Below the pieces are notes generated by a model. The model was not told the origin of the DNA and made no database searches. It saw nothing but the letters and a program-made list of their open reading frames with translations. Position numbers and translations under genes: made by a program. From NCBI GenBank assembly GCA_030390025.1, contig JASTWF010000029.1:3844001-3908000 (forward strand): a DNA stretch of 64,000 nucleotides, given 5' to 3'. The DNA is from Squalus acanthias. Its lineage: Eukaryota. This document shows, one piece after another, positions 4,907 through 46,527 of the stretch (positions are counted from its first letter, which is position 1; each line of letters begins with the position of its first letter).

Positions 4907-5805
4907 TGAACTTGGTGACGATTTTGATTCTATCCCAGAGGAAGTGCGGGCTCTCGAGATGCATCACTCTCTACTTGGTGGCCATGGCAGCGGCGGATCT
5001 GATGGTGGTCATTACCGACGTGATTTTGAATCACATTGCTCAATATTACTTCCCAGATTCTTCCCTGCGCATCACCCCTGTGTGCAGTAGTATCATTGTC
5101 GTGCTCTGTGCAGCGAGGGAGAGTTCTGTCTGGCTAACCGTCGCCTTCACTTTTGATCGGCTCATAGCCATTTGTTATCAGAAACTGAAAGCAGGATATT
5201 GCATTCCGATAACGGCTACTTCGGTGATTGTAGCAGTGTGTCTACTGTCCTGTTTGAAGAACATTCCCTGGTATTTTTCATTTGAACCTGTCTATATCAT
5301 TGACAACGTGCCATGGTTCTGCCAATCAAAGCCCGTGTTTTACACGTTACCTGCCTGGATTGGATATGCTTGGCTCCACCGAATCCTCACCCCATTCTTG
5401 CCTTTTTTCTTCCTTTTGCTCTTTAATGCTCTGATCGTCAGACACATTGTAGTGGCTAATAGAGTTCGCAGGGGGCTTCTCTCCAATCACGGCGGGGCTC
5501 AGGTCGATCCAGAAGTGGAGAACCGAAGAAAATCCATGATTTTAATCTTCGCCATATCGGGCAGCTTCATCGTGTTATGGATGCCTTATGTCATTAATTT
5601 CTTGAATTATCGAATCAATAAAACTTATTATTACACAAGTCATTCTGATCCTGGATATATCCTACAACAGACAGCGTATATGTTTCAGCTTTCGAGCGCC
5701 TGTACCAACACCTGTATCTATGTGGTAACTCAGTCAAAATTCAGAGAGGAGTTGAAAAATATTGTCAGAACTCCGTTTACTCTAGTTGTTAAGTTACTCA
5801 AATAA
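4907..5805 (+). CDS. GPR139/GPR142-like class A GPCR, copy 1, exon 2 (mid-TM1 to stop); exon 1 not found in window
   Basis: Acceptor TTTTTTCTTGTTTCTTACAG|TG at 4906/4907 in phase 1, then an open frame. Motifs: VNLVTILIL (TM1), YLVAMAAADL (TM2), SVWLTVAFTFDRL (TM3), PWFC (ECL2), LWMPY (TM6), TNTCIY (TM7), SKFREEL (helix 8). Confidence 0.9.
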
Positions 5806-6934
5806 ACACAACTGATGTCACTTGAGAACTAACTTGCTCGCGTTTCTCGTCAATTACATTCGTCACTCAGCGATGTCAATCAGAGCAAGTCATCATACCA
5901 ACCGCAAACTCTGGCCCATAGTCTGTGAATTGCCACGCATATATGGATTGCTCTGAGATTATACTAATCAGCATCAACACGTCTCATCTCACGTATATTG
6001 CCACGACACAGACACATTCAGTAATAACTTCAGATGCACTTGCACAACAGATCCCAAGCCTTCAGGAGATAAGCATAAACAAACAGAAGATAATTCCCAA
6101 ATATATTATTGAACTCCACAACAAACCCATCACTAAATTTCATGTGGAAGTTCGGGTAATGAGAATGAAACTATAATGGAAATTCAGATTCAGTAAAAAT
6201 ATTTTGCAGGTTGTCAACCTGCCACTGAGCGCAACAGGTGCTCTGGACAGATTTAGGGGTAATGGAATTCTGCATTGCTTCAACAAACCTGGGCAAGTTT
6301 GGGATATTTTTTTCAAACAATTTGCCGCATTCACATTATATCACAAGACTGATCATTGCGGCACTGGCAGTAAAGAATCCCATGAATGGAGTTTGCATCA
6401 CCCCAGCCAATTATTCAGTGTTATGGGGTGGGGAATCCGGGAGTCAGATCTCTGACTTACTCAAAAACCACTTATAATTCCACAATAAGTTGAAAAGCAA
6501 CTTGTGAGGAAACGGATCCCTTTTGCGATATTCTGTATAATTTCAAACTACAAATGGATCATTCGCTCAAGTCGTAGAGTGAGTGCAGCTAATAACCTCA
6601 CTCAGATATGCGGTCCAAAAACGATTTTGCTCTTATAGAATGTTAATTCTTTCAGCAATATCCCGCCTCATTCATTTTGCCCAAAGTTGAGATGCACCAG
6701 GATTCCTGAGTACTCTTTTCACACGTAGGTGCTCATAATAGTAAGCAAGGTTAGATAGTAGTAAGGCAGAATACTTACCGATAGATGAGGTAATCATGGG
6801 GTAATCAGGCCCAATGCCAACTCTCGTCAGCAAAGGCTGTGACACTCGGAAATCTTCTGGGAAAGAAGCGAGAATGAGTGAATGAGTGGTCAGACGCCAA
6901 ATCGCCTGATGCACATGTGATCAGGGTCTGGCAA

Positions 6935-7345
6935 CGCCTCGCTTTTAATGATCTCATCATTGTTTTCAAATCCCTTCATGGCCACGCCGCTCCCTATCTC
7001 TGTAACCTCCACCAGCCCTACAATCCCCCGAGAAATCTGCGCTCTTCCAATTCTGGGCCCATTCACAACACCGATTTCAGTCGCTCCACCATTGGCGGCC
7101 GTGCATTCAGCTGCCCAGGTGCTTAGATCTATATTTCCCTTCCTAAACCTCTCCGCCTCTCTGCCACTCGTTCCTCCTTTAAGACGCTCTTTAAAACCTA
7201 CCACTTTGACCATGCTTTGGTCACCTGTCCTTGTATCTCCTTATGCGGCTCAATTTCAAATGTTGATTGTTAATCGCTCCTGTGAAGCGCCTTGGGACGT
7301 TTTACTACGTTAAAGGCGCAATTCAAATGCAAGTTGTTGTTGTTT
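6935..7345 (+). mobile_element. L2 LINE 3' end
   Basis: Peptide IVFKSLHGHAAPYL...RNLRSS...TIGGRAFS, followed by the tail TGTGAAGCGCCTTGGGACGTT...AAATGCAAGTTGTTGTTG. Confidence 0.85.
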
Positions 7346-7434
7346 CCTATATGAAAGGAAATACCTTTTAAAATGTGTAAACAGGTCCATTCTTGAGTAT
7401 AACATTCAAGTATCCCCCAGTCACCTGTGCGGTA

Positions 7435-7510
7435 GGCTCCATGGTGTAATGGTGAGCAATGCGGTCTTTGTATTCCAAGGAATCCCAGTTCTAAATCTCG
7501 TGCTGGAACG
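7435..7510 (+). pseudogene. tRNA-Gln(TTG)-like pseudogene or SINE head (copy 2)
   Basis: GGCTCCATGGTGTAATGGTGAGCAATGCGGTCTTTGTATTCCAAGGAATCCCAGTTCTAAATCTCGTGCTGGAAC has an intact A box and a damaged anticodon arm and B box. Confidence 0.7.
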
Positions 7511-7714
7511 TGAATCATTCCTGTGCTAGACGTTGGAAAATTTGGGAAAAAATAAGTTAAAGGCCCCTGGAAGCTGGCACCTGCTGCTTCAATTTATGAT
7601 CATTGAGCTGCTTGTCTGGATTTCAAATCATAAGATCAGCCTGCCTATCCTTTCCCAAATCAGCGGAAGTGCAAGTTGAATGCTGTACTGCACGACAGAA
7701 TGGTGTTGGCTGAG

Positions 7715-8690: not shown

Positions 8691-8694
8691 GCTT

Positions 8695-9571: not shown

Positions 9572-12500
9572 AACTTCCTGTGTCCCTGACAATCATGTGT
9601 GCAGGAGGTGTATCCAGCTGCAGCTACTGACAGACCGCATTGCGGCGCTGGAGCTGCGGATGGATGCATCCTGGAGCATTCGCGATGCTGAGAACATCGT
9701 GGATATCACGTTTAGGGAGTTGTTCACACCGCAGGTAAAGGGTGTACAGGCAGGAAGGGAATGGTTGACCACTAGGCAGAGTAATAGGCGCAGGCAGGTA
9801 GTGCAGGGGTCCCCTGTGGCCATCCCCCTCTCAAACAGATATACCGCTTTGGATATTGTTGAGGGAGATGGCTTATCAGGGGAAGACAGCAGCAGCCAAC
9901 TTCCTAGCACCATAGGTGGTTCTGCTGCACAGGATGGGAGGAAAAAGAGTGGGAGAGCTATCATGATAGGGGATTCTATTGTAAGGGGAAAAATAGGCGT
10001 TTCTGCGGCAGCAAACGAGACTCCAGGATGGAATGTTGCCTCCCTGGTGCAAGGGTCAAGGATGTCTAAGAGCGGCTACAGAATATTTTTGGAAGGGGAG
10101 GGTGAACAGCCAGTTGTCTTGGTACATATAGGTACCAAAGATATAGGTAAAAAACGGGATGAGGTCCTAAAAGCAGAATATAGGGAGTTAGGATGTAAAT
10201 TAAAAAATAGGACCTCAAAGGTGGTAATCTCAGGATTGCTACCAGTGCCACATGCTATTCAGAGTAGAAATAGAAGGATATTTCAAATAAATACGTGGCT
10301 AGAGGAATGGTACAAGGGAGAGGGATTCAAATTCCTGGGGCATTGGAAACGGTTCTGGGGGATGTGGGACCAGTACAAACCGGACGGTCTACACCTGGGC
10401 AGGGCCGGGACCGATGTGCTTGGGGGAGTGTTTGCCAGTGCTCTGTGGGAGTGTTTAAACTAAAATGGCAGGGGGTTGGGAACCAGAGCAGGGAGACAGA
10501 GGAAAGGGAAAAAAAGGATAAAAGCAAAAGATTGGAAGGAGAAAAACAAAAGTAGCAGTCAGAGAAAACAACGGTCTTAATCAAACATGGCCACAGTAAA
10601 TACTAATTCTAATAGGTCTAAGAGCGTTAAAAAAACAAGCCTGAAGGCTTTGTGTCTTAATGCAAGGAGCATTCGGAACAAGGTGGACGAATTCGCTCCG
10701 CAAATAGAGGTAAACGATATGATTTGATTGGGATTACCGAAACATGGCTCCAGGGTGGCCAAGGCTGGAAACTTAATATCCAGGGGTACTCAATATTCAG
10801 GAAAGATAGGCAAAAAGGAAAGGGAGGTGGGGTAGCATTGCTGGTTAAAGAGGGGATTAACACAATTGAAAGGAAGGATATTAGCTCTGATGATGTGGAA
10901 TCTGTATGGGTTGAACTGAGAAATAACAAGTGGCAGAAAACGTAAGTGGGAGTGATATATAGACCTCCAAACAGTAAAGCGGAGGTTGGGGATGGCATTA
11001 AAAGGGAAATTAGAGAAGCGTGCAATAAGGGCACAGCAGTCATCATGGGTGACTTTAATCTACATATAGATTGGGCTAACCAAATTAGTAACACTACTAT
11101 GGAGGAGGAATTCCTGGAGTGTTTACGGGATGGATTCCTGGACCAATATGTCGAGGAACCAACCAGAGATCAGGCCATCTTTGACTGGGTATTATGCAAT
11201 GAGAAAGGATTAATTAGCAATCTTGTTGTACGAGGCCCCTTGGGTCGGAGCGATCATAATATGATATAATTCTTTATTAGGATGGAGAGTGAAGTAGTTG
11301 ACTCAGAGACTAGGTTCCTGAATTTAAATAAAGGAAACTACGATGGTATGAGGTGCGAGTTGGGTAGGATTGATTGGGGAATGTCACTCAAAGGGTTGAC
11401 GGTGGAGAGGCAATGGCAAACATTCAAAGACAGCATGGACGAACTACAGAATGTGTTCATCCCAGTTTGGCATAAGAATAAAACAAAAAGGGTGACTCAA
11501 CCGTGGCTAACAAGGGAAATTAGGGATACTATAAGATCCAAGGAGAGGGCATATAAATTGGCCAGAAAAAGCAGCAAACCTGTGGCTTGGGAGCACTTTA
11601 AGATTCAACAAAGGAGGACAAAGGGATTAATTAAGAAGGGGAAAATAGAATACGAGAGTAAGCTTACAGTGAACATAAAAACTGATTGTGAAAGCTTTTA
11701 TATTTATGTGAAGAGAAAAAGATTAGTGAAATCAAGCATATGTCCCTTGCAGTCAGAATTAGGGGAACTTATAATGGGGAACAAAGAAATGTCAGACCAA
11801 TTAAATACATATTTTGCTTCTGTCTTCACAAAGGAGGACACAAATAACCTCCCAGAGATGTTGGGGAACATCGGGTCTGATGAAAGGGAGGAATTGAAAG
11901 AAATCAGTATTTGTTGGGAAATGGTGTTAGGGAAATTGAAGGGATTGAAGGCCGATAAATCCCCAGGGCCTGATAATATACACCCTAGGGTACTTACGGA
12001 AGTGATCCTAGAAATAGTAGATGCATTGCTGATCATCTTCCAACATTCGATGCTATCTGGAACAGTACCCATGGATTGGAGGGTTGCTAAAGTTACCCCA
12101 CTATTCAAAAAGGGTGGTAAAGAGAAAACGGGGAATTACAGACCGGTAAGCCTGACATCAGTAGTGGGGAAAATGCTAGAGTCCATTATAAAAGATGTAA
12201 TAGCTGAGCACTTGAAAAACAGTGACAGGATCGGACAAAGTCAACATGGATTTACAAAACGTAAGTCATGCTTGACTAATCTATTGGAATTTTTTGAGGA
12301 TGTAACTGGTAAAATAGATAAGGGAGAACCAGTGGATGTGGTGTATTTGGACTTCCAAAGGGCTTTTGATAAGGTACCGCAGAAGAAATTAGCGTGTAAA
12401 GTTAAGGCACATGGGATTGGGGCAAGGTATTGACTTGGATAGAGAACTGGTTGTCAAACAGAAAGCAAAGAGTTGCAATAAACGGGTCTTTTTCCGAGTG

Positions 12501-13538
12501 GCAGGCAGTGACTAGTGGGGTACAGCAGGGATCGGTCCTTGGACCCCAGCTATTCACAATATATATTAATGATCTAGACAAGGGAACTAGATGTAATATC
12601 TCCAAGTTTGCAGACGACACAAAACTGGGTGGGCTTGTGTGCTGCGAGGAGGATGCCGAGAAACTCCAGGATGATTTGGATAGGTTGGGTGATTGGGCAG
12701 AAGCGTGGCAGATGCAATATAACGTGGATAAATGCGAGGTTATCCACGTTGGTGTCAAAAACAGAAAAGCAGATTATTATCTGAATGGCAATGGATTGGG
12801 AGAAGGGGAAATGCAACGAGACCTGGGTGTCCTTGTGCACCAGTCGCTGAAGGTAAGCATGCAGGTGCATCAGGCGGTAAAGAAGGCAAATGGTATGTTG
12901 GCCTTCATAGCGAGAGAGTTTGAGTACAGGAACAAGGATGTCTTGCTGCAGTTGTACAGGGCCTTGGTGAGACCACACCTTGAGTACTGTGTGCAGTTTT
13001 GGTCGCCTAATCTGAGGAAGGATGTTCTTGCCATGGAAGGAGTTCAGCGAAGATTCACAAGGCTGATACCTGGGATGGCAGGAATGACGTATGGAGAAAG
13101 ATTGGGTCGATTGGGCTTATACTCGCTGGAGTTTAAAAGAATGAGAGGGGATCTCATTGAAACTTATAAAATTCTGACAGGACAGGGCAAACTAGATGCA
13201 GGAAGGATGTTCCCACGGGTCGGGGAGTCCAGAACCAGGGGTCACAGTCTAAGGATAAGGGGTAGGCCATTTAGGACAGAAATGAGGAGGAATTTCCTCA
13301 CCCAGTGAGTGGTGAACCTTTGGAATTCTCTGCCACAGAAGGCAGTAGAGGCCAATTCATTAAGTAGATTCAAGAAGGAGTTGGATATATTTCTTAAGGC
13401 TAAAGGGATCAAGTGATATGGGGAGAAAGCAGGGACAGGGTACTGAATTTGGATGATCAGCCATGATCGCGTTGAATGGCGGAGCAGGCTAGAGCGGCCG
13501 AATGGCCGACTCCTGCTCCTATATTCTATGATTCTATG
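9572..13538 (+). mobile_element. Young, near-complete CR1 LINE (ORF1 SGNH esterase, ORF2 APE-RT) nested in an older CR1
   Basis: ORF1 9597-10463 has CxxC plus coiled coil, GDSIVRG, VHIGT and DGLHL. ORF2 pieces from ~10650 to 13450 have ITETW, YRPP, GDFN, SDH, NYRPVSL and FADD, with few stops or frameshifts. The tail is ATTCTATGATTCTATG. Confidence 0.95.
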
Positions 13539-25255: not shown

Positions 25256-26280
25256 TGACGCGGTCAAGTTGTGGTCATATAATTAATCAAAGAACTGATT
25301 CACCACGGCCAATGTAAGAAATGTACGAACAGCGTGGGAAAGGCGAGTGTTGGTCGTTCAGGGTAAGAAGTGAGAAGACAGAGATAGCGGTAGATCGTGG
25401 AATCAGCAACTAGGCAATATCACTAGTTAGGAATTGGCTAAAGGTGAGTCACGCTTGTTGAGATAGTCTCGGTCGAATATGGATAAAGCCCCGAAATTTG
25501 GCGGTGGGATGGTGGAATACAAAGATTTGATTTGCTGGTCTCAATTCCCTCTCCCTTTTAAATGAACAGAAATATTATTCTTTTATTTAAAATTTTAGAA
25601 GTGCCTACACTGCAACAGTGACTACATGTTCTTTATTTCATGCTTTTTTTTGTATTTCTTTATTTTTCTATATTTCTCTCCCTTTCCTTCATTCTGCGTA
25701 ATATAAAGATTCTGACTGGTAACAGTAACTGGAATAGAAGTGTCCAGTGGACTATTGATTTTATTAAACAGGCACGTCAAGAATTAATGGTCAGACTATG
25801 GGTTATGAAATCCTAAAATCAAAGCAAAATACTGCAGATGCTGGAAATCTGAACTAAAAGCAGAACATGCTGGAAACACTCAGCAGATCAGAGAAGATCT
25901 GTGGTAATTGCACAGCAGGGACTGGAAGGAATGGTAAATATAAGGAACAATATTATATAAATTCATATGTTCTGTATTAATTGTGCCCCTCTAAAAGCGG
26001 GCATGTTTGATCGTCTTTTTGATTGATGATACTGGAGCATCCCATTGTTTTATTAATGAAATGTCACCTGTGGAAATTCTTGTTAGGATTATGAGACTTG
26101 TCTCAGTGTATGAAGGTGCAGCATTTATCCTGGTCTTCGGGTCTTTATCTAATTGGAAATTCCGCTGTTGTTGTTAAAAGTTTTGGAGTGAAAATTGTTG
26201 ACATCATCTATTTGTTCAGTGACTGTAATTAAACCCAGTCAGCAGGGGAACCGATTTCTGACCGGATTAATTCTCTCTCC

Positions 26281-26287
26281 TATAAAT
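26281..26287 (+). promoter_or_regulatory. Candidate TATA box of GPCR copy 2
   Basis: TATAAAT lies 97 bp upstream of the ATG and is at the same distance in copy 3. Confidence 0.55.
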
Positions 26288-26377
26288 AAGTGGAATCTTC
26301 ACAATGTTTCAGTCGGAGAATTGCTCCGCGCACCACCACCAACCATCGAATCATCTATTCTAACAGAAAGGCGTAAA

Positions 26378-26474
26378 ATGTCTCTTGGTTTTCTAATCAA
26401 GCTCAAGATTATATGGGCGATAAATGATGTACAAAAGATTTACTATCCCATCCTGGCGGCAGTCGATGTCCCGG
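26378..26474 (+). pseudogene. GPR139-like GPCR copy 2, exon 1
   Basis: AAAATG start encodes MSLGFLIKLKIIWAINDVQKIYYPILAAVDVP, ending at a phase-1 donor CCGG|GTAAGT. Confidence 0.85.
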
Positions 26475-26564
26475 GTAAGTTACTACCTGCAGCTGGTACT
26501 TCAGCAACTGGAGATTAACAGTATGTGGCATCTTCGTCCGTGTGTCCAGTTTTTTTTATTTTAT

Positions 26565-26675
26565 TAATTTCTACACATTGCAACAGTGAATACACTTCAA
26601 TAATACATTGTTGGCTGTAAAGTGTTTCGGGGTAACCTGATTATGAAAGATGCTGTACGAATGCAAGTTCTTTCT
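26565..26675 (+). mobile_element. DeuSINE/SacSINE1-like 3' tail in the GPCR intron (paralogue ~44033-44145)
   Basis: TACACATTGCAACAGTGAATACACTTCAA...GGCTGTAAAGTGTTT...ATGCAAGTTC matches the recalled shark SINE tail. Confidence 0.55.
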
Positions 26676-26709
26676 TTCATTCTGTCTAACGCTCTTTCTC
26701 CCTTGTGTG

Positions 26710-28085
26710 TGTTTGTATATCAATAATTTAGACTTTAATGTATGGGACATGATTAAGAAGTTTCCAGATTAATACAGAAATTGGACCTGTGGTTGATAGT
26801 GAGGAAGAAAGCTGTAGACTGCAGGAAGATATCAACGGACATTCAGGCGAGAGGAAATTGGCAAATGGAATTCAATCCCGTGAAGTGTGAGGTACTGGAT
26901 TTGGGGAGGGCTCACAAGGCAATGGTATACAAAATAAGTGGTAGGATACTGAACATTGTAGAGGAACATAAGAACATTGGACTGCGAGTCCACAGATCCC
27001 TGAAGGTAGCAGAAGAGGTCGATAAGATATTTAAGAAGGCATATGGAATACTTTCCTTTATTACCCAAGACATAGAATATAAGAGCAGGGAGATTCAGCT
27101 TGAAATCTATTAAACATTAGTTTGTCCACAGCTAGAGCACTGCTTACAGTTATGTGCAACACATTATTGGAAAGATGTGATTGCACTAGACAGGCTACAG
27201 AGAAGATTTGAGAGGATGTTGCCAGGCCTGGAGAATTTTAGCAATGAGTAAAGATTACAATGGCTTGGGTTGTTTTCTTTGGAACAGAGGAGGCTGAGGG
27301 GAGACATAATTGAGTTGTATAAAATTATGAGTGTCCTAGATAGAGTGTATTGGAAGGATCTATTTCCCAGAGAACAGTATCTAGTGCCCTCACTGTACTG
27401 TTCCCTACCACAAAACGTTCCTCTTCACTCCCCCACTTGCACTGCCTCCTGTACCACGGTGAAGTGGTCAGTTTGCTCATCCACCCTGCAGACTTTGCCA
27501 TAATTCATACAGGCAACAAGAACTTCGTACGTGTTGGATAAGTGCCAAGGCCGATGTTCCTCCAGCACTGCACCTGAGTCGAATTCACAGCCTCCTGTCC
27601 CTGACCACTCACTTGACGTGTACCACTACATAACCCAAGGGGTGAGACTGCCTCAAGGATCAAAGTGTCCAAGTAACTCTCCCCCTCTCTGATGCCCCAC
27701 AATGTCTGCACCTCGGAGACTAGCTCAAAAAATCTTAGCTGAAATTCCTCGAGATGCCGACATTTATTGCATAAATGTTCGTCCGGGATTGCGATGCTCT
27801 CCACAAACTCACAGATGCTGCAGTTGTGGCACACCATCGGCACTGCCATCCATACATATCCTTATTTATTTATTTAATTTATTAAAGTTTATGTATTTAA
27901 TTAATTTAGCTTTTAGTTTTGTCATTAACTAATTACAAGTTCTAGTTTAATTTACAGGAAGATTGACTTAAATATTTACCTGTAACACAAAGCACTACAA
28001 GTATTGTTGGTTAAAGCAACAACTCGTTCCCCCTCTGCTCTGAAGTCCGATTCTCTCCAAATTCCCAACTTTAACACGCTGTTTA
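26710..28085. mobile_element. Intronic CR1 fragments: RT 3' part (+) and 5' UTR/ORF1 start (-); paralogue ~44175-45495
   Basis: ORF 26781-27113(+) is RT. ORF 27505-27849(-) reads MVCHNCSICEF...CNKCRHLEEFQLR (ORF1 N-terminus). Confidence 0.8.
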
Positions 28086-28220
28086 GAAGCACTCCGTTTA
28101 AGAGCATTCTGTCCAGAACACTCTGAAAACCTACTCCATTAACTTACTTGAAACGAGTCAAAGTACAGTATGTGCCCAGTTTTCGTTGAATAATTTTCAA
28201 TGTTTTCCTCTTGCTTACAG

Positions 28221-29117
28221 TTAACGTGGTGACGATTGCGATCCTGTCTCGGGGAAAGTGCGGTCTCTCCAAATGTGTCACTCACTGCCTGGTGGCCATG
28301 GCATCGGCAGATCTAATGGTTGTGATCATCGATCTGATACTAAGACAGATACCTATTGTTTATCGCGAACTATTCATGTTTGTATGGTACCTTAGAATAT
28401 GTAATATTCATGCCATTCTACTTCATGACGCTACATACTTTTCTGTCTGGTTCACGGTAACTTTCACCTTCGATCGATTTTTTGGCCATTTGTTGCCAGA
28501 AGCTGAAATCTAAATATTGCAACGAGAAAACGGCGGCTGTTGTTTTAGGAACAGTGGCTCTGCTGAGCTGTTTGAAGAACATTTTCTGTTATTTCCTGTA
28601 TACAAGTGAATATTTTCTTTCTAACGATCCCTGGTTTTGCCTCGTGCCAATCAGTGTACATCACTCGCTGGCCTGGGCCATCGTTGAATTAATGCATTAT
28701 ATTTTAACGCCATTTGTTCCATTTCTTTTGATTCTACTGTTCAATGCATTGACGGTGAAACACATTTTAGTGGCCAGCAGAGCCCGCAGCAGACTCCGGG
28801 GTCGGAGCAGTGGCGAGAGTCCCAGTGACCCAGAGATGGAGAGCCGAAGGAAATCCATGATTGTACTCTTTGTTGTATCGGGGAATTTCATACTACTGTG
28901 GGTGGTGTTCATGTTTTGTTCTGTATGGAGACGATTGGATTACGTGGGATATTCTGTTTCTCTGCCCAAATTTGTAACGGAAATCGGCTTCATGCTCCAG
29001 CTCCTGAGTTGCTGCACCAACACTTTTATTTATGCAGTGACCCAAAGGAAATTCAGAGAGGAACTGAGGAATGGAGTGAAATATCCCATTGCAATGATGA
29101 TCAAATTAATTCGATGA
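28221..29117 (+). pseudogene. GPR139-like GPCR copy 2, exon 2, with a +1 frameshift after DRF
   Basis: Acceptor CTTGCTTACAG|TT. The exon is 897 nt versus 896 nt in copy 3. It reads CGA-TTTTTT-GGCC (T run 28478-28483) where copy 3 reads CGA-TTTGT-GGCC. Confidence 0.85.
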
Positions 29118-29435
29118 AATGACCGAACACAATCTAACATTATTATGTAGTTTTGTTTGATATTCTGTAGAATTCACTATTGTCTCCTTTAATTCTTTCA
29201 CTTGGATTTTGTGAAGTTGATTTTGGTGAAACTGTCAGTGTTGGAGATCCCATAAATACAGAGCTACAATCAAAATAACATTGAGAAAGCTAGTTTTCTC
29301 CACAGAAATTGCAAGATCTTTCTGTGAATGTATCTTTGCAGTCAGCGGCGATCACCATTCCTCACTCAAAGACTGCAAATTCTGGGCCTTTATAATTTCT
29401 AAAACATTTCATAATCTGATTCCAACATTTAAGTA

Positions 29436-34220: not shown

Positions 34221-34223
34221 CAG

Positions 34224-36388: not shown

Positions 36389-37572
36389 ATAATAATTAAT
36401 TAACTAATCAAATAAATAACGAAGGTTAGATAGACATGGCAGTGTAGGTGGTGTGCCGTAACTGCAGCATGTGGGTGTTTGTGGAGATCCGAGAGATCCC
36501 GAGCAACAACATCTGTTGTAAGTGTCTACAGCACGAGGAACTTCGGCTCAGAATTGTTGAGCTGGATTAGGAGGTGCAGTCATTGCAGGGCATCAGGGAG
36601 TGGGAGTGTTACATGGACAATTGGTCCCAGGAGGCAGTGAAACCCCTCAGATTAAGTAGAACATCAGAGTTTGTCAATGCTCAGGGACAGGATAGTGTGA
36701 GCGCGAGTCGGGAAGGAATAGGGACCGAGGATATAGTGATGGAGGAGCCTCGGCCCTTGACTTTGACCAACAGGTATGAGATACAACGACTGCAGGGTGT
36801 ATGAGCAAACTGACCATGGCATCATGCTGCAGGAGGCCATTCAATTAGGCGGAGTGAAAACGAAACTACGAGTGGTTGGGGACAGCATAGTCAGGAGAAT
36901 AGTTACAGTTCTCTGCAGCCGTGACCGGGAGTTCCGAAGGTTGTGTTGCCTGCCTGGTGCTAAGGCAAACGTTGTCTCATCGCGGGTGCAGAAGAATTTG
37001 AAATGCGAGGGGGAGGATCCGTTTGTAGTGGTTCATGTAGCAAACAACGACATAGGTAGAACAAGGAATGAGTTTCTGCTGAGAGAGTTTGAGGAGTTGG
37101 GGGTCGAAATTAAAAAGCAGAACCTCACAGGTAATAATCTCTGGATTGTTACCTGAGCCACGAACAAAATGGCATAGGGACAAACAGATGAGCACGTTAA
37201 ATTCTTGGCTCAAAGAGTGATGTGGGAGGCAGGGGTTTCATTTCCAGGGGCAGTGGCACCAGTATTGAGGAAGAGGGAGCTGTTCCTTGGAGACGGAATC
37301 CAATTTAACCGGGCTTGGACCAGTATCCCGGCAAATCGAAAACTAGGGCAGAAGATAGGGATTTAAACTAATGAAGTGGGGTGGAAGGATTCAGGAAAGG
37401 GTAAATTCAAATGCAGTGAGAGAAATGTCAAGGCTGTATAGCAGAGCAATGATCTGGGTAAAGAAAAGCAGAGTGGGTCAGGAAGGGACAGAAAGATTAA
37501 TATATGTAACAGGGCAACAGTGGCTAAAGTGACATGAGGGAAAAATAGAGACTAAGCTAAAGCTAAAGGTAT

Positions 37573-38313
37573 GGCCCAAAAATTAGTGCCGCAACGCGAG
37601 AGTACGGACTGCGTACTCTCGCGTATTCTGTCTCCAATTGACGGTTTTCAGCATGCACTGCGCATGCGCTGAAAACCGGCACTTGGTGATTGGAAAAGGG
37701 GGCGGGTCCTAGGTGAACCGCGTGCGCGCTACAGGCTGCGCGCACGCTGTGCACTGAGTGGTTTCAACGCGCAGGTAAGTACGGAAAATTCTACACATAA
37801 AAAAAGGAGGAGTAAGACCCACTTTTAACAAGGTAAGTAATGAATTAAGTATTATTTTGAATTTTTTTTAACAGGTATATCTTTTTTAGAGACTTTAAAG
37901 ACAGGTAAGTTTATTTTTATAACTTTTTAAAAGATTTTAAATTTTTTCAAAAATTTAATGTTTTATTGAAAATGGTTAATTTATTTAACTGTACTTATTT
38001 TATTAATGTGATGGTTTTTTAAAATTTAATTGAGGTTTAGCGGTTCTTTTGGGGGGCTATAGTATTCATAGCTTTCACAGCACTGATGCGAAAGTTATGA
38101 ATAGAAGATGGTGTGCTGCCATTGGATCTAACTGAGTCACGTGATCCCACAGCTCGCACGAATTAACTACGCCTGTGGGATACGCAAGCCCAGCACAGCA
38201 GCTGTCCAGAACATCAAGTTCGTGCGAGCTGTAACTGAAAAAGCCAACGCGCAGTGAGAGATTGCGGGGAGGCCTTACCCTCGCACGAAGGCTTCCTCAC
38301 GAATTTTTGGGCC
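37573..38313 (+). mobile_element. Harbinger-type MITE, copy 2
   Basis: Perfect 12-bp TIRs GGCCCAAAAATT. The right flank is ATT, and the paralogous site at ~18925 is empty. Confidence 0.88.
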
Positions 38314-41300
38314 ATTATATCTGAGTGCACGAAGCACTCACCACAAAATAGATGAATTAAAAGCGCAGATAGAAATAAATGGGTTTGTTTTAATAGCCAT
38401 TATAGAGACGTGGTTGCAGAGTGAACAACGTTGTGAACTAAGTATTCCAGGATATTTGACCTTTGGAATAAACAGTTGCAATGGAGAAAGAGGAGTGGTA
38501 GCCTTGATAATAAAGGAGGGAATAAAAACAGTAGAGAGAAATAATCTTGGCTCGGAAAAACAATCTGTAGAATCAGTTTGTGTGAAGCTAAGAAACAACA
38601 AGGGGGAGATAATAGCAGTGGGAAAAGTCTATAGGCCCCCGAACAGTGGTTGTAATGGCGGGCAGACGATAAATTAGGAAATTGGAGATGCATGTAACAA
38701 GGCTAATCCAGTAAGCATGGGGGACTTTAACTTTCATATAGACTGGGATAACCAAATTTGCAAAAAATAGAGAAGAGGAAAAGTTAATGCAATACATTCA
38801 AGATAGTTGTCAAGGAACCTACGATGGAATTGGTTACTTTAGATCTAGTACTGTGCAATGAGAGAGGGTTAATTAATCACCTTGTAGTAAAGGAGCCTCT
38901 GGGGCGCAGTGATATTAATATGATAGAATTTTATGTTGAGTTTGAGAGTGATTTCGTTAAGCCCGAAGCAAGGGTCCTAAACCTGACCAAAGCCAACTGC
39001 GTAGGTATGAAAGACGAGTTGGGTCTGGTCGATTAAGAAACGAGGTTAAAAGATAGGACAGTAAAAAAACAATTGCAAACAATTGAAGAAATGATTCATA
39101 ATTCGCAACGACTTTTCATTGCCTTAAGGAATAAAAATACCACGGGACAAAATGTTCCAACTATGGCTAACAAAAGAAATTAAAGATAGTATTAGATTAA
39201 AGGAAGAGGCTTATAATGTTGCTAAAAAGATAAGCAAGCCTGAGGATTGGGAGGATTTTAGAATTCAGCAAAGGAGCTCCAAGAAATTAATGAGGAAAGG
39301 GAAAATGGTATGTGAGAGTAAACTTGCGACAGACATAAATACAGACTGTAAAATCTTCTATATGTATCACAAGAGGTAAACTTCCGCGAAAATAAAGGTG
39401 AAATTACAGGCTGAGACAGGATAAATTATAATGGGGTATAAGGAAATGACAGAGAAATTAAACAAATACATTGTGTCTGTTTTCACAGAGGAAGATGCAA
39501 AAAACCTCCCGGAAATACTGGAGAACCAAGGGTCTAGCGAAAATCAGGAACTGAAAGAAAGTAGTATTAGTAAGAAAAAGCACTGGAGAAATTAATGGGA
39601 CTGAAAGCTTATAAATCCCCTGGACCTGATGCCACGCATCCGAGGGTTTTAAAAGTGCTGGGTATAGACATAGTGGATGGATTAGTTGTCTTCTTCCAAA
39701 ATTCCATTTATTCTAGAACGTTTCCTGTGGATTGGAAGGTGGCAAATGAAACCCCACTATTTAAAAAATGAGGGGGAGAGAAAAGGGGAACTACAGACCA
39801 GTTAGCCTCACATCAGTAGTAGTGCAAATGCTAGAATCTATTATTAAGGAGGTGGTAAAAGGGTACTTACAAAATATATTAGGATGGGACAGAGTCAAAA
39901 CGGATTTATGACAGGGAAATTATGTTTGACGAATCTGTTAGAGGTTTTTGAGGTTGTAACTGGCAGAAGTGATAAGGGGGAAGCAGTGGATGTGGTGTAT
40001 TTGGATTTTCAGACGGTATTCGATAAGGTGCCACACAAAGGTTATTGAACAAAATTAGGGATCATGGGATTCGGGCGAACATAATAGCATGGCTTGAGGA
40101 TTGGTTAACGGACTGAAAACAGAGTGTAGGAATAAACGGTTCATTTTCGTGTTGGGAGGCTGTACCTCGTGGGGTACCGCAAGGCTCAGTGCTTGGGCCA
40201 CAGCTATTCACAATCTAAATCAATGATTTGGATGAGGGGACCAAATGTAACATATCCAAGTTTGCTAATGACACAAACCTAGGTGGGACTGTAAGTTGTG
40301 AAGATAATGCAAAGAGGCTTCAGGGGTATATAGACAGACGAGGTGATTGGGCAAGAAGCGGGCAAATGGAATATAATGTGGAGAAATGTGAAGTTATCCA
40401 CTTTGGTAGGGAAAATAGAAAAGCAGTGTATTATTAATGGTAAGAGAATGGGCAATGTTGCTATTCAGAGGGACCTGGGTGTCCTTGTACACGAATCACT
40501 GAAAATTAAAATGCAGGTACAGCAAGCAATTAGGAATGTAAATGGTATGTTGGCGTTTATTGCAAGAGGATTTGAGTACAAGAGTACAGGCGTCTTCCCG
40601 CAATTGTATAGGGCCCTGGTGATACCACACCTGGCATATTGTGCACAGTTTTAGTCTTCTTACCTAAGGAAGGATATACTGGTCATGGAGCGTGTGCAAC
40701 GAAGGTTCACCAGACTGATCCTGGGATGGGGGGATTGACCAACCGAGGAGAGATTGAGTAGACTCGGGCTATATTCTCCAGCGTTTAGATGAATGAGAGG
40801 TGATCTCATTGAAACATATACAATTCTTACAGGGCTTGACAGGGAAGATGCAGGAAGGATCTTTCCCCTGGCTGGGGAGTCTCGAACCAGGGGTCACAGA
40901 CTCAGAATAAGGGGTCAGTCATTTTGGACTGAGATGAGGAGAAATTTCATCACTCAAATGGTTGTGAATCTTTGGAATTCTCTACCCCAGACGGCTTTGG
41001 AGGGTCAGTCGTTGAGTAAATTCAAGACAGAGATCGATAGATATTTGTATCTTAAGGGAATCAAGGGATATGCGGATAGTGCTGGAAAGTGGAGATGAGG
41101 TAGCAGATCAGCCATGATGTTATTGAATGGCGGAGCAGGCTCGAGGGGCCGAATGGCCTACTCCTGCTCCTGTTACTTCTGTTCATATTTTCTTATGAAA
41201 CCGGTAGTGCTAGGGTCTATCGGTAATTCAGTGCTGGTTAGTGAGATGGAGGAGCGCTGGACCGGGTGGTACTAGGATCTAACGGTAAATTACTGCTGGT

Positions 41301-42129
41301 TATTGAGATGGAGGGGTAGTGGGAAGGATACCACTAGGGTCGGTAGGTGAATTGATGTATCTTATTGAGGTGAACGCATGTAAAGGAAATAATGTTAGTC
41401 GATTCACTGCTGTTCAGAATATTGAAGGTATATTGAAGTGACTTGTACTGTACCCGCAGGTACTTGCAGAGGGTTCCATAGGATATACAGCACAGAAACA
41501 GGCCATTCGGCCCAAACAGTCTATGTCGACGTTTACGCTCCACTCGACACTTCTTACTTTTTTCCTCATCTAACACTGTCAGCGTAACCTTCAACTCCAT
41601 ACTCCCTCATATGCGTGTCTCGGCTCCTCTTAAACGAATCTATCCTATTAGCTTCAAACACTCCCTGTGGTATCGAGTTCCACATTCTTACCCCTCTCAT
41701 GGTAAAGATAATTTTTTCATGTATTCTCTATTTGATTTCTTGTCCTATACCTTACATTGATGGCCACTAGTTTTTCTCTTCCCCGCTAGTGGAAACACAA
41801 TCGCTGTGTCTGCTCTCTGAAAACCATTCACAACCATAATTACCTGTATTAGGTCACCCCTCAGCCTTATCTTTTCGATAGAAAAGAGACCCAGCCTGTT
41901 CATCCTTTCCTGAAAGGTGTAACTTCGCATTTCTGGTATCATTCTTGTAAATCTTTTTTCCACCTTCTCTAGTTCCTTGATATCCTTTTTGCAATATGGC
42001 CACCATTATTGTTAGGAATTGGCTAAAGGTGAGTCACGCTTGTTGAGATAGTCTCCGTCGAATATCGATAAAGCCTCGAAATTTGGCGGTGGGATGATGG
42101 AATACAAAGATTTGATGTGCTGGTCACAG

Positions 42130-42975
42130 GACTTAGTGGCAGGAGGCAGAGGGTGATGTTCGAAGCTTGTTTTTGTGACTGGAAGCCTGTGTCCAGTGGT
42201 GTACCGCAGGGATCGGTGCTGGGTCCTTTGCTGTTTGCTGTGTACATTAATGATTTAGATATGAATGTAGGAGGTATGATCAGTAAGTTAGCAGATGACA
42301 CGAAAATTGATGGAGTGGGAAATAGCGAGGAGTTAAGCCTTAGGCTGCAGGATGATATAGACGGGTTGGTCAGATGTGCAGAACAGTGGCAAATGGAATG
42401 TAACACTGAAAAGTGGGAGGACTAACAAGGCAAGGGAATACAGAATGAATGGTAGGACCCTCGGAAGGATGTGATTGCATTGGAGAGCGTGCAGAGGAGA
42501 TTCAACAGGCTGTTACCTGGGCTGGAGCGCTTCAGCTATGAAGAGAGACTGGACACGCTGGGGTTGTTTCCTTAGAGCAGAGAAGGCTGAGGGGGGACAT
42601 GATTGAGTTGTAGAAAATTATGAGAGGCATAGATAATGTAGCTAGAAAGGAACTTTTCCCCTAAGTGGAGGAGTCAACAACCAGGCGGCATAGTTTCGAG
42701 TTAAGGGGCAGGAGGTTTAGAGGGGATTTGAGGAAAAACATTTTCACCCAGAGGGTGGTTGGAATCTGTAACTCACTGCCTGAAACGGTGGTAGTGGCAG
42801 GAATCCTCACAATATTCATGAAGCATTTATATGAGCACTTGAAACGCCAGAGCAAACAAGGCTGCGGACCAAGTGCTGGCAAATGGGTTTAGAATAGACA
42901 GGGCTTGATGGCCGGCGCAGACACGATGGGCCGAAGGGCATCTTTCTGTGCTGTATAACTCTATGACTCTATGAA
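42130..42975 (+). mobile_element. CR1 3' fragment with an internal deletion (paralogue starts ~63720; absent in unit A)
   Basis: ORF 42117-42425 reads SGVPQGSVLGPLLF...ADDTK. The tail is CTCTATGACTCTATG. Confidence 0.85.
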
Positions 42976-43748
42976 CCTCTCGCTTTTAAATAAACAGCAA
43001 TATTAACCTTTAATTTTAAATTTTAGGAGTGCCTATACTACAACTGTGACTACATTTTCTTTATGTCATGCTTTTTTCTCGTCTTTCTTTTTCTATTTTT
43101 CTCTCCCTTTCCTTCTTTCTGCATAATATAAAGTTTCTGACTGGTATCAGTAAATGGAATAGAAGTGTCCGGTGGAATTTTGATTTTATTAAACAGGCAC
43201 GCCAGGGTTAATGATCAGACTATGTGTTATGAAATCCTAAAAGCAAAGCCAAATACTGCAGATGCTGGAAATCTGAACTAAAAGCAGAACATTCTGGAAA
43301 CAATCAGCAGGTTAGACAGCATCTTTAGTAATTGCACAACAGGTACTGAAAGGAGTGATAAATATAGGGACAATATTATTTAAATTCATAATATTCCTTA
43401 AGTTTCGTTTTGCTTTATGCTAATATACTTTATAAGTTGTGGCCCTCTAAAAGCGGGATTGTTTGATAGTCTTTTTGATTGATAACACTGGAGAATCCCA
43501 TTGTCTCCTTATACTTTTATTAATGAAGTGTCACCTGTGGAAATTCTTGTTAGGATTGTGGAACGTGTCTCAGTGTATGAAGGTGCAGCATTTATCATTG
43601 TCATCGGGGCTTTATCTAATTGGAAGTTCCGCAGTTGTTGTTAAAAGTCTTGGAGTGAAAATTGTTGACATCATCTTCTTGTTCAGTGACTGTAATTAAA
43701 CCCAGTCAGCAGGGGAACCGAATTTCTGACTGGATGGATTCTCTCTCC

Positions 43749-43755
43749 TATAAAT
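43749..43755 (+). promoter_or_regulatory. Candidate TATA box of GPCR copy 3
   Basis: TATAAAT lies 97 bp upstream of the ATG at 43846. Confidence 0.55.
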
Positions 43756-43845
43756 AAGGGGAATCTTCTCAATGTGTCAATCGGAGAATTGCTCCCAGCA
43801 TCACCACCAACCATCGAATCATCTATTCTAACAGAAAGGCGTAAA

Positions 43846-43942
43846 ATGTCTCTTGGATTTCAAATCAAGCTCAAGATTCTATGGGCGATTAATGATATAC
43901 AAAAGATTTACTACCCCATCCTGGCTGCGGTCGGAGTCCCGG
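43846..43942 (+). CDS. GPR139-like GPCR copy 3, exon 1
   Basis: 97 nt encoding MSLGFQIKLKILWAINDIQKIYYPILAAVGVP, ending at a phase-1 donor G|GTAAGT. Confidence 0.9.
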
Positions 43943-45631
43943 GTAAGTCATTACCTGCAGCTGGTACTTCAAGAACTGGAGATTAACAGAATGTAGCATC
44001 TTAGTCCGTGTGTCCAGCTCTTTATTTTATTAATTTCCACACATTAGAGCAGTGAATAAAGTTCAAAAATACTTTGTTGTCTGTAAAGTGTTTTGGGGTA
44101 ACCTGACGTCATGAATGGTGCTGTATGAATGAAAGTTCTTTTTTCATTCTCCCTCACGCTCTTTCTCTCTTCTGTGTGTTTTTATATCAATGACTTAGAT
44201 TTCAATGTCGGGGACATGATTAACAAGATTCCAGATGATACAAAAATTGGACGTGTGGTTGCTAGTGAGGAAGAAAGCGGTAGATTGCAGGAAGATGGGC
44301 AGAAAGTGGCAAATGGAATTGAATCCGGAGAAGTATGAGTTAGTGGATAAGGGGAGGGCTCACAAGGCAAGTGAATGCACAATAAATGGAACGATATTGA
44401 ACATTGTAGAGCAACAGAAGAACATTGGACTGCATATCCACAGATACCTGAAAGTAGCAGAAGAGGTCGATAAGCTAGTTAAGAAGGCATATGGGATACT
44501 TTCCTTTATTAGACAAGGCATAGAATATAAGGGCACGGAGATTCAGCTTGATATGTATAAAATATTAGTTTGGCCACAGCTAGATTACTGCATACAGTTA
44601 TGGTCAACAAATTCCTAGAAAGATGTGATTGCACTAGACAGGCTACAGAGAAGATTTGAGAGGATGTTGCCAGGTCTGGAGAATTTTATCAATGAGTAAA
44701 GATTACAAAGGCCTGGGTTGATTTCTTTGGAACAGAGGAGGCTGAGGGGAGACATAATTGAATTGTATCAAATTATGTGTGTCCTAGATAGAGTGTATTG
44801 GAAGGATCTATTTCCCAGAGAACAGTTTCTAGTGCCCTCACTGTACTGTTCCCTACCACAAAACGTTCCTCTTCACTCCCCCACTTGCACTGCCTCCGGT
44901 ACCACGGTGAAGTGGTCAGTTTGCTCATCCACCCTGCAGACTTTGCCCTCATTCATACAGGCAACAAGAACGTCGTACGTGTTGGATAAGGGCAAAGGCC
45001 GAGTTTCCTCCAGCACTGCACCTGAGTCGAATTCACAGCCTCCTGTCCCTGACCACTAACCAGACGTGGATCAAAGTGTCCAAGTAACTCTCACCTGCCC
45101 TGATGCCCCACGATGGCTTCGCCTCGGAAACTAGCTCAAGAAATCTGAGCTGAAATTGCTCGAGATGCCGACATTTATTGCATAAATGTTCGTCCGCGAT
45201 TGCGATACTCTCCACAAACTCACACATGCTGCAGTTGTGGCACACCACCGGCACCGCCATCCATATATATCCTTATTTATTTATTTAATTTATTAAAGTT
45301 TATGTATTTAATTAACTTAGATTTTAGTTTTGTCTTTAATCAATTACAAGTTCTAGTTTAATTTACAGGTAGATTTACTTAAATATTTACCTGTAACACA
45401 AAGCACTACAAGTATTGTTGGCTAAAAGCAGCAACTCGTTCCCCCTCTGCACTGAATTCCCATTCTCTCCAAATTCCCAACTTTAACACGTTGTTTAGAA
45501 ACACTCCGTTTAAGATCATTCTGTCCAGTCCACTATGCAAATCTACTCCGTTACCTTACATGAAACAAATCAAAGTACTGTATGTGCCTAGTTTTCGGTG
45601 AATAATTTCAATTTTTTCCTCTTGCTTACAG

Positions 45632-46527
45632 TTAACGTGGTTACGATTGCGATCCTGTCTCGGAGAAAGTGCGGCCTCTCCAAATGTGTCACTCACTACC
45701 TGGTGGCCATGGCAGGGGCAGATCTACTGGTTGTGATCATCGATCTGATACTAAGGCAGATTCCTATTGTTTATCGGGAACTATTCATGTTTGTACAGTA
45801 CCTTAGAATATGTAATATTCATGCCATTCTACTTCATGCCGCTACAGACTTCTCTGTCTGGTTCACCGTAACTTTCACCTTTGATCGATTTGTGGCCATT
45901 TGTTGCCAGAAGCTGAAATCTAAATATTGCAACGAGAAAACGGCGGCTGTTGTTTTAGGAACAGTGACTCTGCTGAGCTGTTTGAAGAACATTTTCTGGT
46001 ATTTTCTGTATACAAGTGAATATTTTCTTTCTAACGATCCCTGGTTTTTCCTCGTGCCATTCAGTGTACATCACTCGCTGGCCTGGGCCATCGTTGAATT
46101 AATGCATTATATTTTAACGCCATTTGTTCCATTTATTTTGATTCTACTGTTCAATGCATTAATGGTGAGACACATTTTAGTGGCCAGCAGAGCCCGCAGC
46201 AGACTCCGAGGTCAGAGCAGTGGCGAGAGTCCCAGTGACCCAGAGATGGAGAGCCGAAGGAAATCCATGATTGTACTGTTTGTTATATCAGGGAATTTCA
46301 TACTGCTGTGGGTGGTGTTCATGTTTTGTTCTTTCTGGAAACGATTGGATTACTTGGGATATTCTGTTTCTCTGCCCAAATTTGTAACGGAAATCGGCTT
46401 CATACTCCAGCTCCTAAGTTGCTGCACCAACACTTTTATTTATGCAGTGACCCAGAGGAAATTCAGAGAGGAACTAATGAATGGTGTGAAATATCCCATT
46501 GCAATGATGATGAAATTAATTCGATGA
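45632..46527 (+). CDS. GPR139-like GPCR copy 3, exon 2 (spliced product 330 aa)
   Basis: Acceptor CTTGCTTACAG|TT; 97+896 = 993 nt open. Motifs: GVPVN, LVAMAGADL, TFDRFVAIC, NTFIY, RKFREEL. Confidence 0.92.

What the first reader, a model, noticed from the sequence alone, without database searches (positions are those of the whole stretch)
4907..46527. Tandem array of divergent GPR139/GPR142-like orphan receptors evolving by birth and death: a candidate expanded chemosensory or metabolite-sensing family
Seen in sequence: three co-oriented 7TM genes share a phase-1 intron inside TM1 (GVP|VN). They have DRF/DRL in place of DRY, NT(C/F)IY in place of NPxxY, and a conserved ICL3 motif DPE(M/V)E(S/N)RRKSM. 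Copies 2 and 3 have a very short N-terminus with no N-glycosylation sequon. One copy is strongly divergent, one is broken and one is open. Established knowledge (from recall): mammalian GPR139 and GPR142 are single-copy aromatic amino acid (L-Trp/L-Phe) sensors, and GPR139 has its intron at the equivalent GLP|AN position. Inference: short-N-terminus, tandemly amplified, pseudogenising class A receptors show the genomic pattern of OR/TAAR/taste repertoires. This may be part of a lineage-specific ligand-sensing repertoire derived from the GPR139 branch. Function cannot be read from the sequence.
Basis: partly seen in the sequence, partly recalled or inferred. Interest (0 to 1): 0.78.

Follow-up and report, generated by a model that had tools for sequence, protein, structure and literature searches.

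The report
Huge shark orphan-receptor gene family
The three receptor genes here belong to a very large, apparently unstudied family of cell-surface sensors in sharks and skates whose ligand pockets differ widely, which suggests a big hidden set of chemical detectors in animals thought to have few, although where they are expressed is still unknown.

Summary
The three co-oriented class A GPCR genes are real. They lie in a 17-22 kb tandem unit that repeats again at the right end of the window. Copy 2 is frameshifted. Copy 3 is open but lacks the ECL2 cysteine found in all 120 nearest relatives. Copy 1's first exon is not in the window.

They belong to a very large shark/skate family that databases label 'probable GPCR 139' (2,358 clusters at E<=1e-10; at least 56 paralogues in one shark). 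They are not GPR139/GPR142 orthologues. Their sister is a one-per-species amphibian/sturgeon gene (support 99/97), and human GPR139 scores only 62 bits against the family profile.

Deep paralogues are hypervariable at pocket positions and conserved on the G-protein side; the amphibian orthologues show the reverse. The Arg/Asn pair that GPR139 uses to bind Trp/Phe is absent in 120 of 120 near relatives but kept (as Lys/Asn) in 20 of 20 amphibians.

Best reading: a diversified ligand-detection repertoire. A chemosensory role is the most likely single option (0.4), with immune or somatosensory roles as rivals. No expression data could be obtained. Ten literature searches found no description of the family.

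The parts
4907..5805 (+). Copy 1, main coding exon (second half of TM1 to stop), open; divergent subfamily; first exon not found in the window
   Evidence: exon-1 searches negative; nearest relative held is 57% identical
25548..29435 (+). Duplicated gene cassette of copy 2 (promoter, two exons, intron, 3' flank), 88.5% identical to 42976-46830
   Evidence: self-blastn
26281..26288 (+). TATA-box-like TATAAATA, 97 nt before the ATG of copy 2
   Evidence: promoter function inferred
26378..26474 (+). Copy 2, coding exon 1 (32 codons + 1 nt; DVP before the phase-1 donor)
28221..29117 (+). Copy 2, main exon, frameshifted just after the DRF motif (extra base in T-run 28478-28483); probable pseudogene
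   Evidence: substitutions at two near-invariant TM3 sites carried by 0 of 120 relatives
42976..46830 (+). Duplicated gene cassette of copy 3
43749..43756 (+). TATA-box-like TATAAATA, 97 nt before the ATG of copy 3
43846..43942 (+). Copy 3, coding exon 1 (short N-terminus and first half of TM1, GVP before the phase-1 donor)
   Evidence: 61 of 120 relatives have an equally short N-terminus
45632..46527 (+). Copy 3, main exon, open (330-aa product), ECL2 Cys replaced by Phe
   Evidence: 7TM fold
55749..64000 (+). Further repeat of the region upstream of copy 3 (33847-42409, offset about 21.6 kb); predicts another gene cassette starting near 64.6 kb, outside the window
   Evidence: the gene itself is not seen

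Best explanation
The genes are members of a chondrichthyan expansion of one ancient GPR139-clan receptor, which survives as a single gene in amphibians and sturgeon. Tandem and segmental duplication multiplied it. Copies keep a common intracellular face (inferred: one shared G-protein pathway) while the outer half and the pocket diverge, so different copies would bind different ligands, and many copies decay. The membership and diversification steps are shown (about 0.85). The last step is inferred: the repertoire detects external chemicals, most likely peptides or hydrophobic/aromatic small molecules rather than free Trp/Phe, in sensory or barrier epithelia (nose, taste buds, solitary chemosensory cells of skin, gill or gut), working like V1R/TAAR/TAS2R repertoires.
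For: SIZE: 2,358 of 3,356 candidates at E<=1e-10; 118 of the best 120 are named shark proteins from 8 species, 56 from one species. There are 133 clusters at 50% identity with E<=1e-30; a skate member is named.
CLUSTERING: 11 and 14 Heptranchias hits and 14 Heterodontus hits share a contig length; the window holds a tandem unit.
ORIGIN: the expanded group plus amphibian/sturgeon gene is supported 99/97, the expanded group alone 92/79. The ICL3 D-P-E motif is shared with amphibians (D 100%, E 100%) and not with the other single-copy clade.
POCKET: mean entropy at 30 pocket positions is 2.62 bits against 1.68 for random TM positions in 64 deep paralogues (0 of 10,000 draws as high), but 0.12 against 0.40 in 20 amphibian orthologues. 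Outer/inner entropy ratios are 1.8-3.2 in paralogue sets, and 0.62 and 1.08 in the two single-copy clades.
CONSTRAINT AND DEATH: copy 2/3 dN/dS is 0.35, Fisher p=0.0003; copy 2 is broken.
Against: There is no expression or ligand evidence. Pocket hypervariability cannot tell positive selection from relaxed constraint. Within the nearest subfamily the pocket excess is weak: P=0.076 for all 120, 0.009 for 56 Heptranchias, 0.30 for 28 Heterodontus. Catshark olfactory neurons are reported to be essentially all microvillous, TRPC2/Go-positive and V2R-dominated (PMC10116579), which leaves no obvious need for another nasal family. The 63 unnamed deep representatives are assigned to sharks only by best named hit. 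True GPR139/GPR142 sequences were not in the tree.
Confidence: 0.4

Rival explanations
1. The same diversified repertoire, but used by immune cells or somatosensory neurons to detect microbial, parasite or tissue-damage peptides, in the way FPR and MRGPR clusters work in rodents.
For: All sequence evidence for diversification fits equally well. Cartilaginous fishes are reported to lack MAS1 and its relatives (PMC8455134 passage), which leaves that role open. The wider clan consists of peptide receptors (PMC8514136). Some paralogues carry glycosylated N-terminal repeats.
Against: No immune or ganglion expression data. The immune analogy rests on recalled knowledge of FPR/MRGPR clusters.
Confidence: 0.25
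2. Receptors for an endogenous, co-diversifying peptide family (neuroendocrine or reproductive signals), like the invertebrate MIP/sex-peptide, FMRFamide and proctolin receptors of the same clan.
For: The clan relationship is stated in PMC8514136 and PMC12208981 section 8. Atlas neighbours include Srw/FMRFamide-receptor-like clusters. The amphibian orthologue has a nearly invariant pocket, as expected for a fixed endogenous ligand.
Against: Dozens to hundreds of paralogues with divergent pockets and rapid turnover are not typical of hormone receptors (established knowledge). No matching peptide expansion was looked for.
Confidence: 0.15
3. A largely non-adaptive by-product: a rarely used receptor carried along by LINE-rich segmental duplications and decaying.
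For: Of the three copies, one is broken, one has lost a conserved cysteine and one lacks a visible first exon. The unit is mostly repeats. Six of 120 database models have N-termini that match window repeats, which hints at weak transcript support.
Against: dN/dS is 0.35 even with a broken copy in the pair. The intracellular face is conserved across paralogues only 40-60% alike. The copy-2/3 subfamily is kept at 70-82% identity in at least 7 shark genera. The proximal promoter is 93% identical between copies against 87% for the intron.
Confidence: 0.12
4. Amplified GPR139/GPR142-type sensors of L-Trp/L-Phe (metabolite or food amino-acid sensing).
For: GPR139 is the best PDB match (E 4e-16). In the nearest subfamily the deep aromatic cage is kept: 3.33 Tyr/Phe 96%, His5x43 98%, Trp6.48 100%. 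These positions matter in GPR139 (PMC5430874).
Against: 6.51 is never Arg/Lys and 7x38 never Asn in 120 of 120 near relatives; both together occur in 0 of 64 deep ones. N271A strongly reduces Trp/Phe responses in GPR139. The family is not orthologous.
Confidence: 0.08

Closest known systems
GPR139 and GPR142 (class A orphans activated by L-Trp/L-Phe; PDB 7VUG, 9M42)
   Same: Best sequence match among solved structures. Shared N1.50, D2.50, R3.50, H5x43 (near subfamily), W6.48, and N-x-x-x-Y without Pro in TM7.
   Different: Only 62 bits against the family profile, compared with 188 and 171 bits for non-mammalian relatives. The family has an ICL3 DPE insert, has lost R6x51/N7x38, mostly lacks P6.50, and is multi-copy.
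Unnamed amphibian/sturgeon gene labelled 'probable GPCR 139' (P0228, P0389-P0408)
   Same: Sister group in the tree (99/97); shares the DPE..RRxS ICL3 motif and the ECL2 cysteine.
   Different: One cluster per species in 20 amphibian species, 66-74% identical to P0228. Its pocket is nearly invariant and keeps F3x33, W6x48, K6x51 and N7x38.
GPR210A/B of Rinne et al. 2019 (PMC6504862; passages read)
   Same: Non-mammalian orphans placed next to GPR139/GPR142 in coelacanth, gar and fishes. The second single-copy clade found here (P0237, P0271) may be one of them.
   Different: The word 'shark' does not occur in that paper's main text and no expansion is described. I could not match its Ensembl ids to my proteins.
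Vertebrate chemoreceptor and MRGPR/FPR repertoires (OR, TAAR, V1R/ORA, TAS2R; shark V2R/OlfC)
   Same: Tandem clusters, birth and death, conserved intracellular side with variable pocket (pattern recalled; shown here).
   Different: Different sequence family (Pfam 7tm_1 only), with an intron in TM1. It is probably far larger than the 34 catshark V2Rs. Sensory expression is not shown.
Invertebrate MIP/sex-peptide, FMRFamide, RGWamide, proctolin, myosuppressin receptor clan (Srw-like)
   Same: Reported common origin with GPR139/142; feature neighbours in the Atlas.
   Different: No Srw Pfam hit for the window proteins. The vertebrate expansion described here is separate.

Membership tests
Class A (rhodopsin-like) GPCR | 7tm_1 domain above the curated cut-off | tested here: met
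   64.1, 60.0 and 43.7 bits against cut-off 30.5
Class A (rhodopsin-like) GPCR | Seven-helix fold | tested here: met
   model pLDDT 68.6; class A receptors match with TM about 0.6-0.68; the fold does not single out GPR139 (rank 6)
Class A (rhodopsin-like) GPCR | TM3-ECL2 disulfide cysteines | tested here: inconclusive
   both present in copies 1 and 2 and in 120 of 120 relatives; the ECL2 Cys is Phe in copy 3
GPR139/GPR142 orthologues | High similarity to human GPR139 and grouping with it | tested here: not met
   38 bits and 62 bits; closer non-mammalian genes exist. GPR139 itself was not in the tree and GPR142 was not compared.
GPR139/GPR142 orthologues | Trp/Phe site F3x33, H5x43, W6x48, R6x51, N7x38 (PMC5430874) | tested here: not met
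   aromatic cage kept in the near subfamily; R6x51 and N7x38 absent in 120 of 120
GPR139/GPR142 orthologues | Intron at the equivalent TM1 position | not testable with these tools
Wider GPR139/142/GPR210 clan | GPR139 as nearest characterised receptor | tested here: met
   best PDB sequence hit for copy 3, the family profile, the catshark single-copy gene and the Xenopus orthologue
Chemosensory receptor repertoire (works like OR/V1R/TAAR) | Large clustered family with gene birth and death | tested here: met
Chemosensory receptor repertoire (works like OR/V1R/TAAR) | Variable pocket on a conserved signalling face | tested here: met
   strong across deep paralogues, weak inside the nearest subfamily
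Chemosensory receptor repertoire (works like OR/V1R/TAAR) | Sparse expression in sensory cells | not testable with these tools
   no RNA holder listed; catshark supplements not readable
Chemosensory receptor repertoire (works like OR/V1R/TAAR) | Activation by external chemicals; positive selection at pocket codons | not testable with these tools
   needs assays and coding sequences of many paralogues; only protein sequences were held
OR, TAAR, V1R, TAS2R families themselves | Family-specific Pfam profile or sequence grouping | tested here: not met
   one search returned only 7tm_1 (plus one sub-threshold SUR7 hit); nearest relatives are GPR139-like

The most novel reading that the evidence does not exclude
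This is a further vertebrate chemosensory receptor family and the largest in cartilaginous fishes: hundreds of GPR139-clan class A receptors expressed sparsely in olfactory, taste or solitary chemosensory cells. It would overturn the view that sharks smell and taste with only a few dozen receptors, and the single amphibian orthologue would give the ancestral ligand.
Probability: 0.3. Interest if true: 0.9.

Novelty: new variant of a known kind. Interest (0 to 1): 0.66.

Why it matters
Published work stresses that cartilaginous fishes have few GPCRs and few olfactory receptors despite a keen sense of smell (PMC8455134; PMC10116579). A family with at least 56 paralogues in one shark and over two thousand database clusters sits under an automatic label and was not found in print by my searches. 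Whatever tissue uses it, it is a major unexamined receptor repertoire. The question is directly testable with existing catshark tissue RNA-seq. The conserved single-copy amphibian orthologue, with a GPR139-like polar pocket, offers a tractable route (Xenopus) to the ancestral ligand.

Tried and rejected
GENOME COUNT: no genome is held for this window, so paralogues in this species were not counted.

EXPRESSION: no RNA holder listed. Three same-species runs, only guessed to be RNA and kept as contigs, gave short pieces about 83-92% alike over exon 2 but also covered the intron, and no joint matched the intron. This is no evidence either way.

COPY 1 EXON 1: not found by profile, donor scan or tblastn.

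UPSTREAM CODING EXON FOR COPIES 2/3: considered because an acceptor-like sequence lies just before the ATG. Set aside because a TATA box lies 97 nt upstream in both copies and 61 of 120 relatives have an equally short N-terminus.

FOLD SEARCH: does not discriminate among class A receptors.

SEQUENCING ERROR AS CAUSE OF THE COPY 2 FRAMESHIFT: possible, because it lies in a T-run. Judged less likely because copy 2 also differs at 10 other columns that are at least 90% conserved (12 listed, two of them at the break), against a median of 4 in relatives. Copy 3 has 7.

LITERATURE: no description of the family in ten searches: gpr139+shark (4 papers), 'coupled receptor 139'+shark, six-term search (14), evolution terms (27), binding-site terms (36), shark GPCR expansion terms (44), gpr142+shark, gpr139+cartilaginous, gpr139+skate, gpr139+olfactory epithelium (71, 9). 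The white shark genome paper is not held. The catshark supplement is unreadable. Whale shark supplements (24 readable files, 6 not) gave one GPR142 orthogroup of 70 proteins in 35 taxa. Eight catshark cartilage supplements gave nothing.


Full report
OBSERVATION. The window is repeat-rich, shark-type DNA (GC 43%). tblastn of the window with the receptor exons finds three loci, all on the + strand, and each scores above the Pfam 7tm_1 cut-off. Copy 3 has exon 1 at 43846-43942, a phase-1 GTAAGT..TTACAG intron of 1,689 nt and exon 2 at 45632-46527, giving 330 aa. Copy 2 has the same layout (26378-26474; 28221-29117), with DVP instead of GVP and one extra base in a six-T run that ends the protein at 129 aa. 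Both have TATAAATA 97 nt before the ATG. Copy 1 (4907-5805) is open, about 50% identical to copy 3 and has a phase-compatible acceptor. Its first exon was not found by a profile of 87 exon-1 peptides, a donor scan or tblastn with 231 N-terminal pieces. The shared intron is thus fully shown for two of three genes.

ARRAY. The cassettes of copies 2 and 3 are 88.5% identical over 3.9 kb and lie in a 17-22 kb unit. The stretch 33847-42409 recurs collinearly at 55749-64000 (six pieces, 79-90%; one piece of 2,946 columns at 90%), which predicts another cassette from about 64.6 kb. Between copies 2 and 3, dS is 0.115 and dN 0.040 (ratio 0.35; Fisher p=0.0003). Both show wear. At 152 columns conserved in at least 90% of the 120 nearest relatives, copy 2 departs at 12 (two of them at the break) and copy 3 at 7, against a median of 4. 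Copy 3's departures include the ECL2 cysteine, whose Phe replacement is carried by 0 of 120.

FAMILY SIZE. Copy 3's main exon finds 2,358 clusters (90% identity) at E<=1e-10 among 3,356 candidates; only the best 120 were seen. Of these, 118 carry shark names: Heptranchias 56, Heterodontus 28, Pristiophorus 17, Stegostoma 8, Scyliorhinus 5, Mustelus 3, Carcharodon 1. Two are unnamed (tally). 117 are labelled probable/putative GPCR 139. The best identity is 82%. Many hits share a contig length (11 and 14 in Heptranchias, 14 in Heterodontus), so clusters exist in other sharks. A profile of 28 sequences finds 133 clusters at 50% identity with E<=1e-30 and 635 with E<=1e-10, so the family is old and deep. 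Of the 150 listed I used the 63 unnamed ones aligned over at least 265 residues that were not among the nine distant rows. All 63 have a shark or skate protein as best named hit. A skate member is named. No named chimaera member appeared in the rows I saw.

ORIGIN. Human GPR139 is the best PDB match but weak: 38 bits for copy 3 and 62 for the profile. Two non-mammalian genes score far higher, 188 and 171 bits. Gene A (25 hits among 1,675 candidates) is one cluster in each of 20 amphibian species plus sturgeon; the remaining four hits are shark/skate family members. Gene B (145 hits, 120 listed) is about one per species in coelacanth, three sharks, sturgeon, teleosts, amphibians, turtles and squamates, with no mammal or bird among the named rows. 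Neither is GPR139 (62 and 69 bits). In a 50-row careful tree, the 33 expanded rows form one group (92/79), sister to gene A (100/100), together 99/97; gene B is apart (100/99). The quick trees agree. Gene A shares the ICL3 DPE motif; gene B and GPR139 lack it. True GPR139/GPR142 were not in the trees, and the word-indexed searches can miss distant relatives. Rinne et al. 2019 named non-mammalian neighbours of GPR139/142 'GPR210A/B' without mentioning sharks (PMC6504862, passages).

POCKET. I anchored generic numbers on conserved residues of copy 3 and chose 30 pocket positions, from the GPR139 mutagenesis paper (PMC5430874, passages) and from recalled class A positions. Across 64 deep paralogues (the 63 plus P0062), pocket entropy is 2.62 bits against 1.68 for random TM positions (0 of 10,000 draws as high). 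In 20 amphibian orthologues it is 0.12 against 0.40, and in gene B 0.82 against 0.92. Outer-half to inner-half ratios are 3.2 (56 Heptranchias), 1.9 (28 Heterodontus), 2.3 (all 120), 1.8 (deep), 0.62 (amphibians) and 1.08 (gene B). Against this reading, the pocket excess inside the nearest subfamily is weak (P=0.076 overall; 0.009 and 0.30 by species), and entropy cannot separate positive selection from relaxation. GPR139's polar pair R6x51/N7x38 is kept as K/N in 20 of 20 amphibians, in 0 of 120 near relatives and jointly in 0 of 64 deep ones. HMMER aligns the Xenopus residues to F109, W241, R244 and N271 independently. The near subfamily keeps an aromatic 3.33, H5x43 and W6.48. I infer that the ancestor bound an amino acid or peptide as GPR139 does, and that shark copies moved to other, varied ligands.

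N-TERMINI. Of 120 near relatives, 100 have a well-formed TM1 start. 61 of these are as short as copies 2/3 and none of the 61 has a sequon. 39 are longer, 34 of them with sequons and 19 with two or more units of a 14-residue DWN-containing repeat. The short N-terminus is therefore a subfamily trait.

HOW IT LIKELY WORKS. Shown: class A fold, duplication, decay, a conserved cytoplasmic face and a variable outer face. Inferred: one G-protein output shared by many receptors of differing specificity, that is, a detection repertoire (about 0.85 for the family and diversification claim). Tissue is a judgement: external chemosensation 0.40, immune or somatosensory 0.25, endogenous peptides 0.15, non-adaptive 0.12, GPR139-like amino-acid sensing 0.08. 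Expression could not be tested (see Tried and rejected). The catshark nose is described as microvillous and V2R-dominated (PMC10116579, abstract and passages), which lowers but does not exclude a nasal role.

NOVELTY. The genes are in public annotations under an automatic label. Ten searches of the held library found no paper on the expansion. Term searches of three shark genome papers showed no GPR139 mention in the main text (PMC11979771: passages and section 13; PMC8455134: passages and 24 supplements; PMC10620051: passages). The same held for a 2026 OR preprint (passages). I also saw PMC8514136 (passages), PMC12208981 (passages and section 8), PMC12294341 (passages) and PMC13188829 (supplement search only). 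The white shark genome paper, the catshark supplement, six unreadable whale shark files and subscription papers were not seen and may bear on novelty and expression.

EARLIER NOTES OF THIS SCAN (unchecked AI notes, not evidence). One describes the same family in a ray genome as confined to cartilaginous fishes; my data add the amphibian/sturgeon sister gene. Another reports hundreds of members, a TATA promoter and a 26-bp satellite in this genome. The TATA box is seen here and the satellite is not. A word search and a sequence search of the notes returned nothing.

VERDICT. The feature is real. It is a new variant of a known kind: a lineage-specific GPCR repertoire, from a branch not known to form one. 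Interest 0.66, held back by the lack of any expression or ligand evidence and by the poor state of the copies in this window.

Noticed in passing
P0060, P0062-P0064, P0066, P0070, P0075, P0076, P0079, P0083, P0085, P0088, P0090, P0093, P0094, P0107, P0111, P0113, P0118 (all Heptranchias); also P0222, P0223, P0269: Paralogues carry about 2-8 tandem units of a 13-14-residue N-terminal repeat, most units starting with Met and holding a DWN-x-T glycosylation sequon, an Arg and a Trp. It could be a variable glycosylated stalk or a protease-released tethered ligand; untested.
   Followed up: partly
P0228, P0389-P0408: An unnamed one-per-species amphibian/sturgeon receptor with a nearly invariant, GPR139-like polar pocket (F3x33, W6x48, K6x51, N7x38) but S1.50 and N2.50; a good deorphanisation target.
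   Followed up: partly
P0237, P0243, P0271-P0388: A second conserved GPR139-like orphan from sharks to reptiles, not seen in mammals or birds among the named rows. It has Ser/Cys at 6.48, and two models are named as TMEM183A isoforms, which suggests it lies beside that gene.
   Followed up: partly
window 10345-13538 (+) and 52965-55750 (-): Two copies of a CR1-type LINE, 93% identical over 2.5 kb, with long ORF pieces; other CR1-type copies lie at about 18.9-21.7, 38.3-41.2 and 59.2-62.8 kb. The family label is recalled, from no call.
   Followed up: no
window 16940-17986 (-), 22063-23641 (+), 49326-51538 (-): Decayed ORFs that look like a Harbinger-type transposase, a hAT/Buster-type transposase and an RTE-type LINE. 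The labels are recalled, from no call.
   Followed up: no
window 34226-34476 and 56127-56296: A G/A-rich 31-32-bp minisatellite present in both copies of the duplicated upstream unit.
   Followed up: partly
P0029, P0065, P0068, P0084, P0097, P0098: Six of 120 database models have N-termini that match repeat sequence in the window, so public gene models of this family are sometimes mis-spliced.
   Followed up: partly
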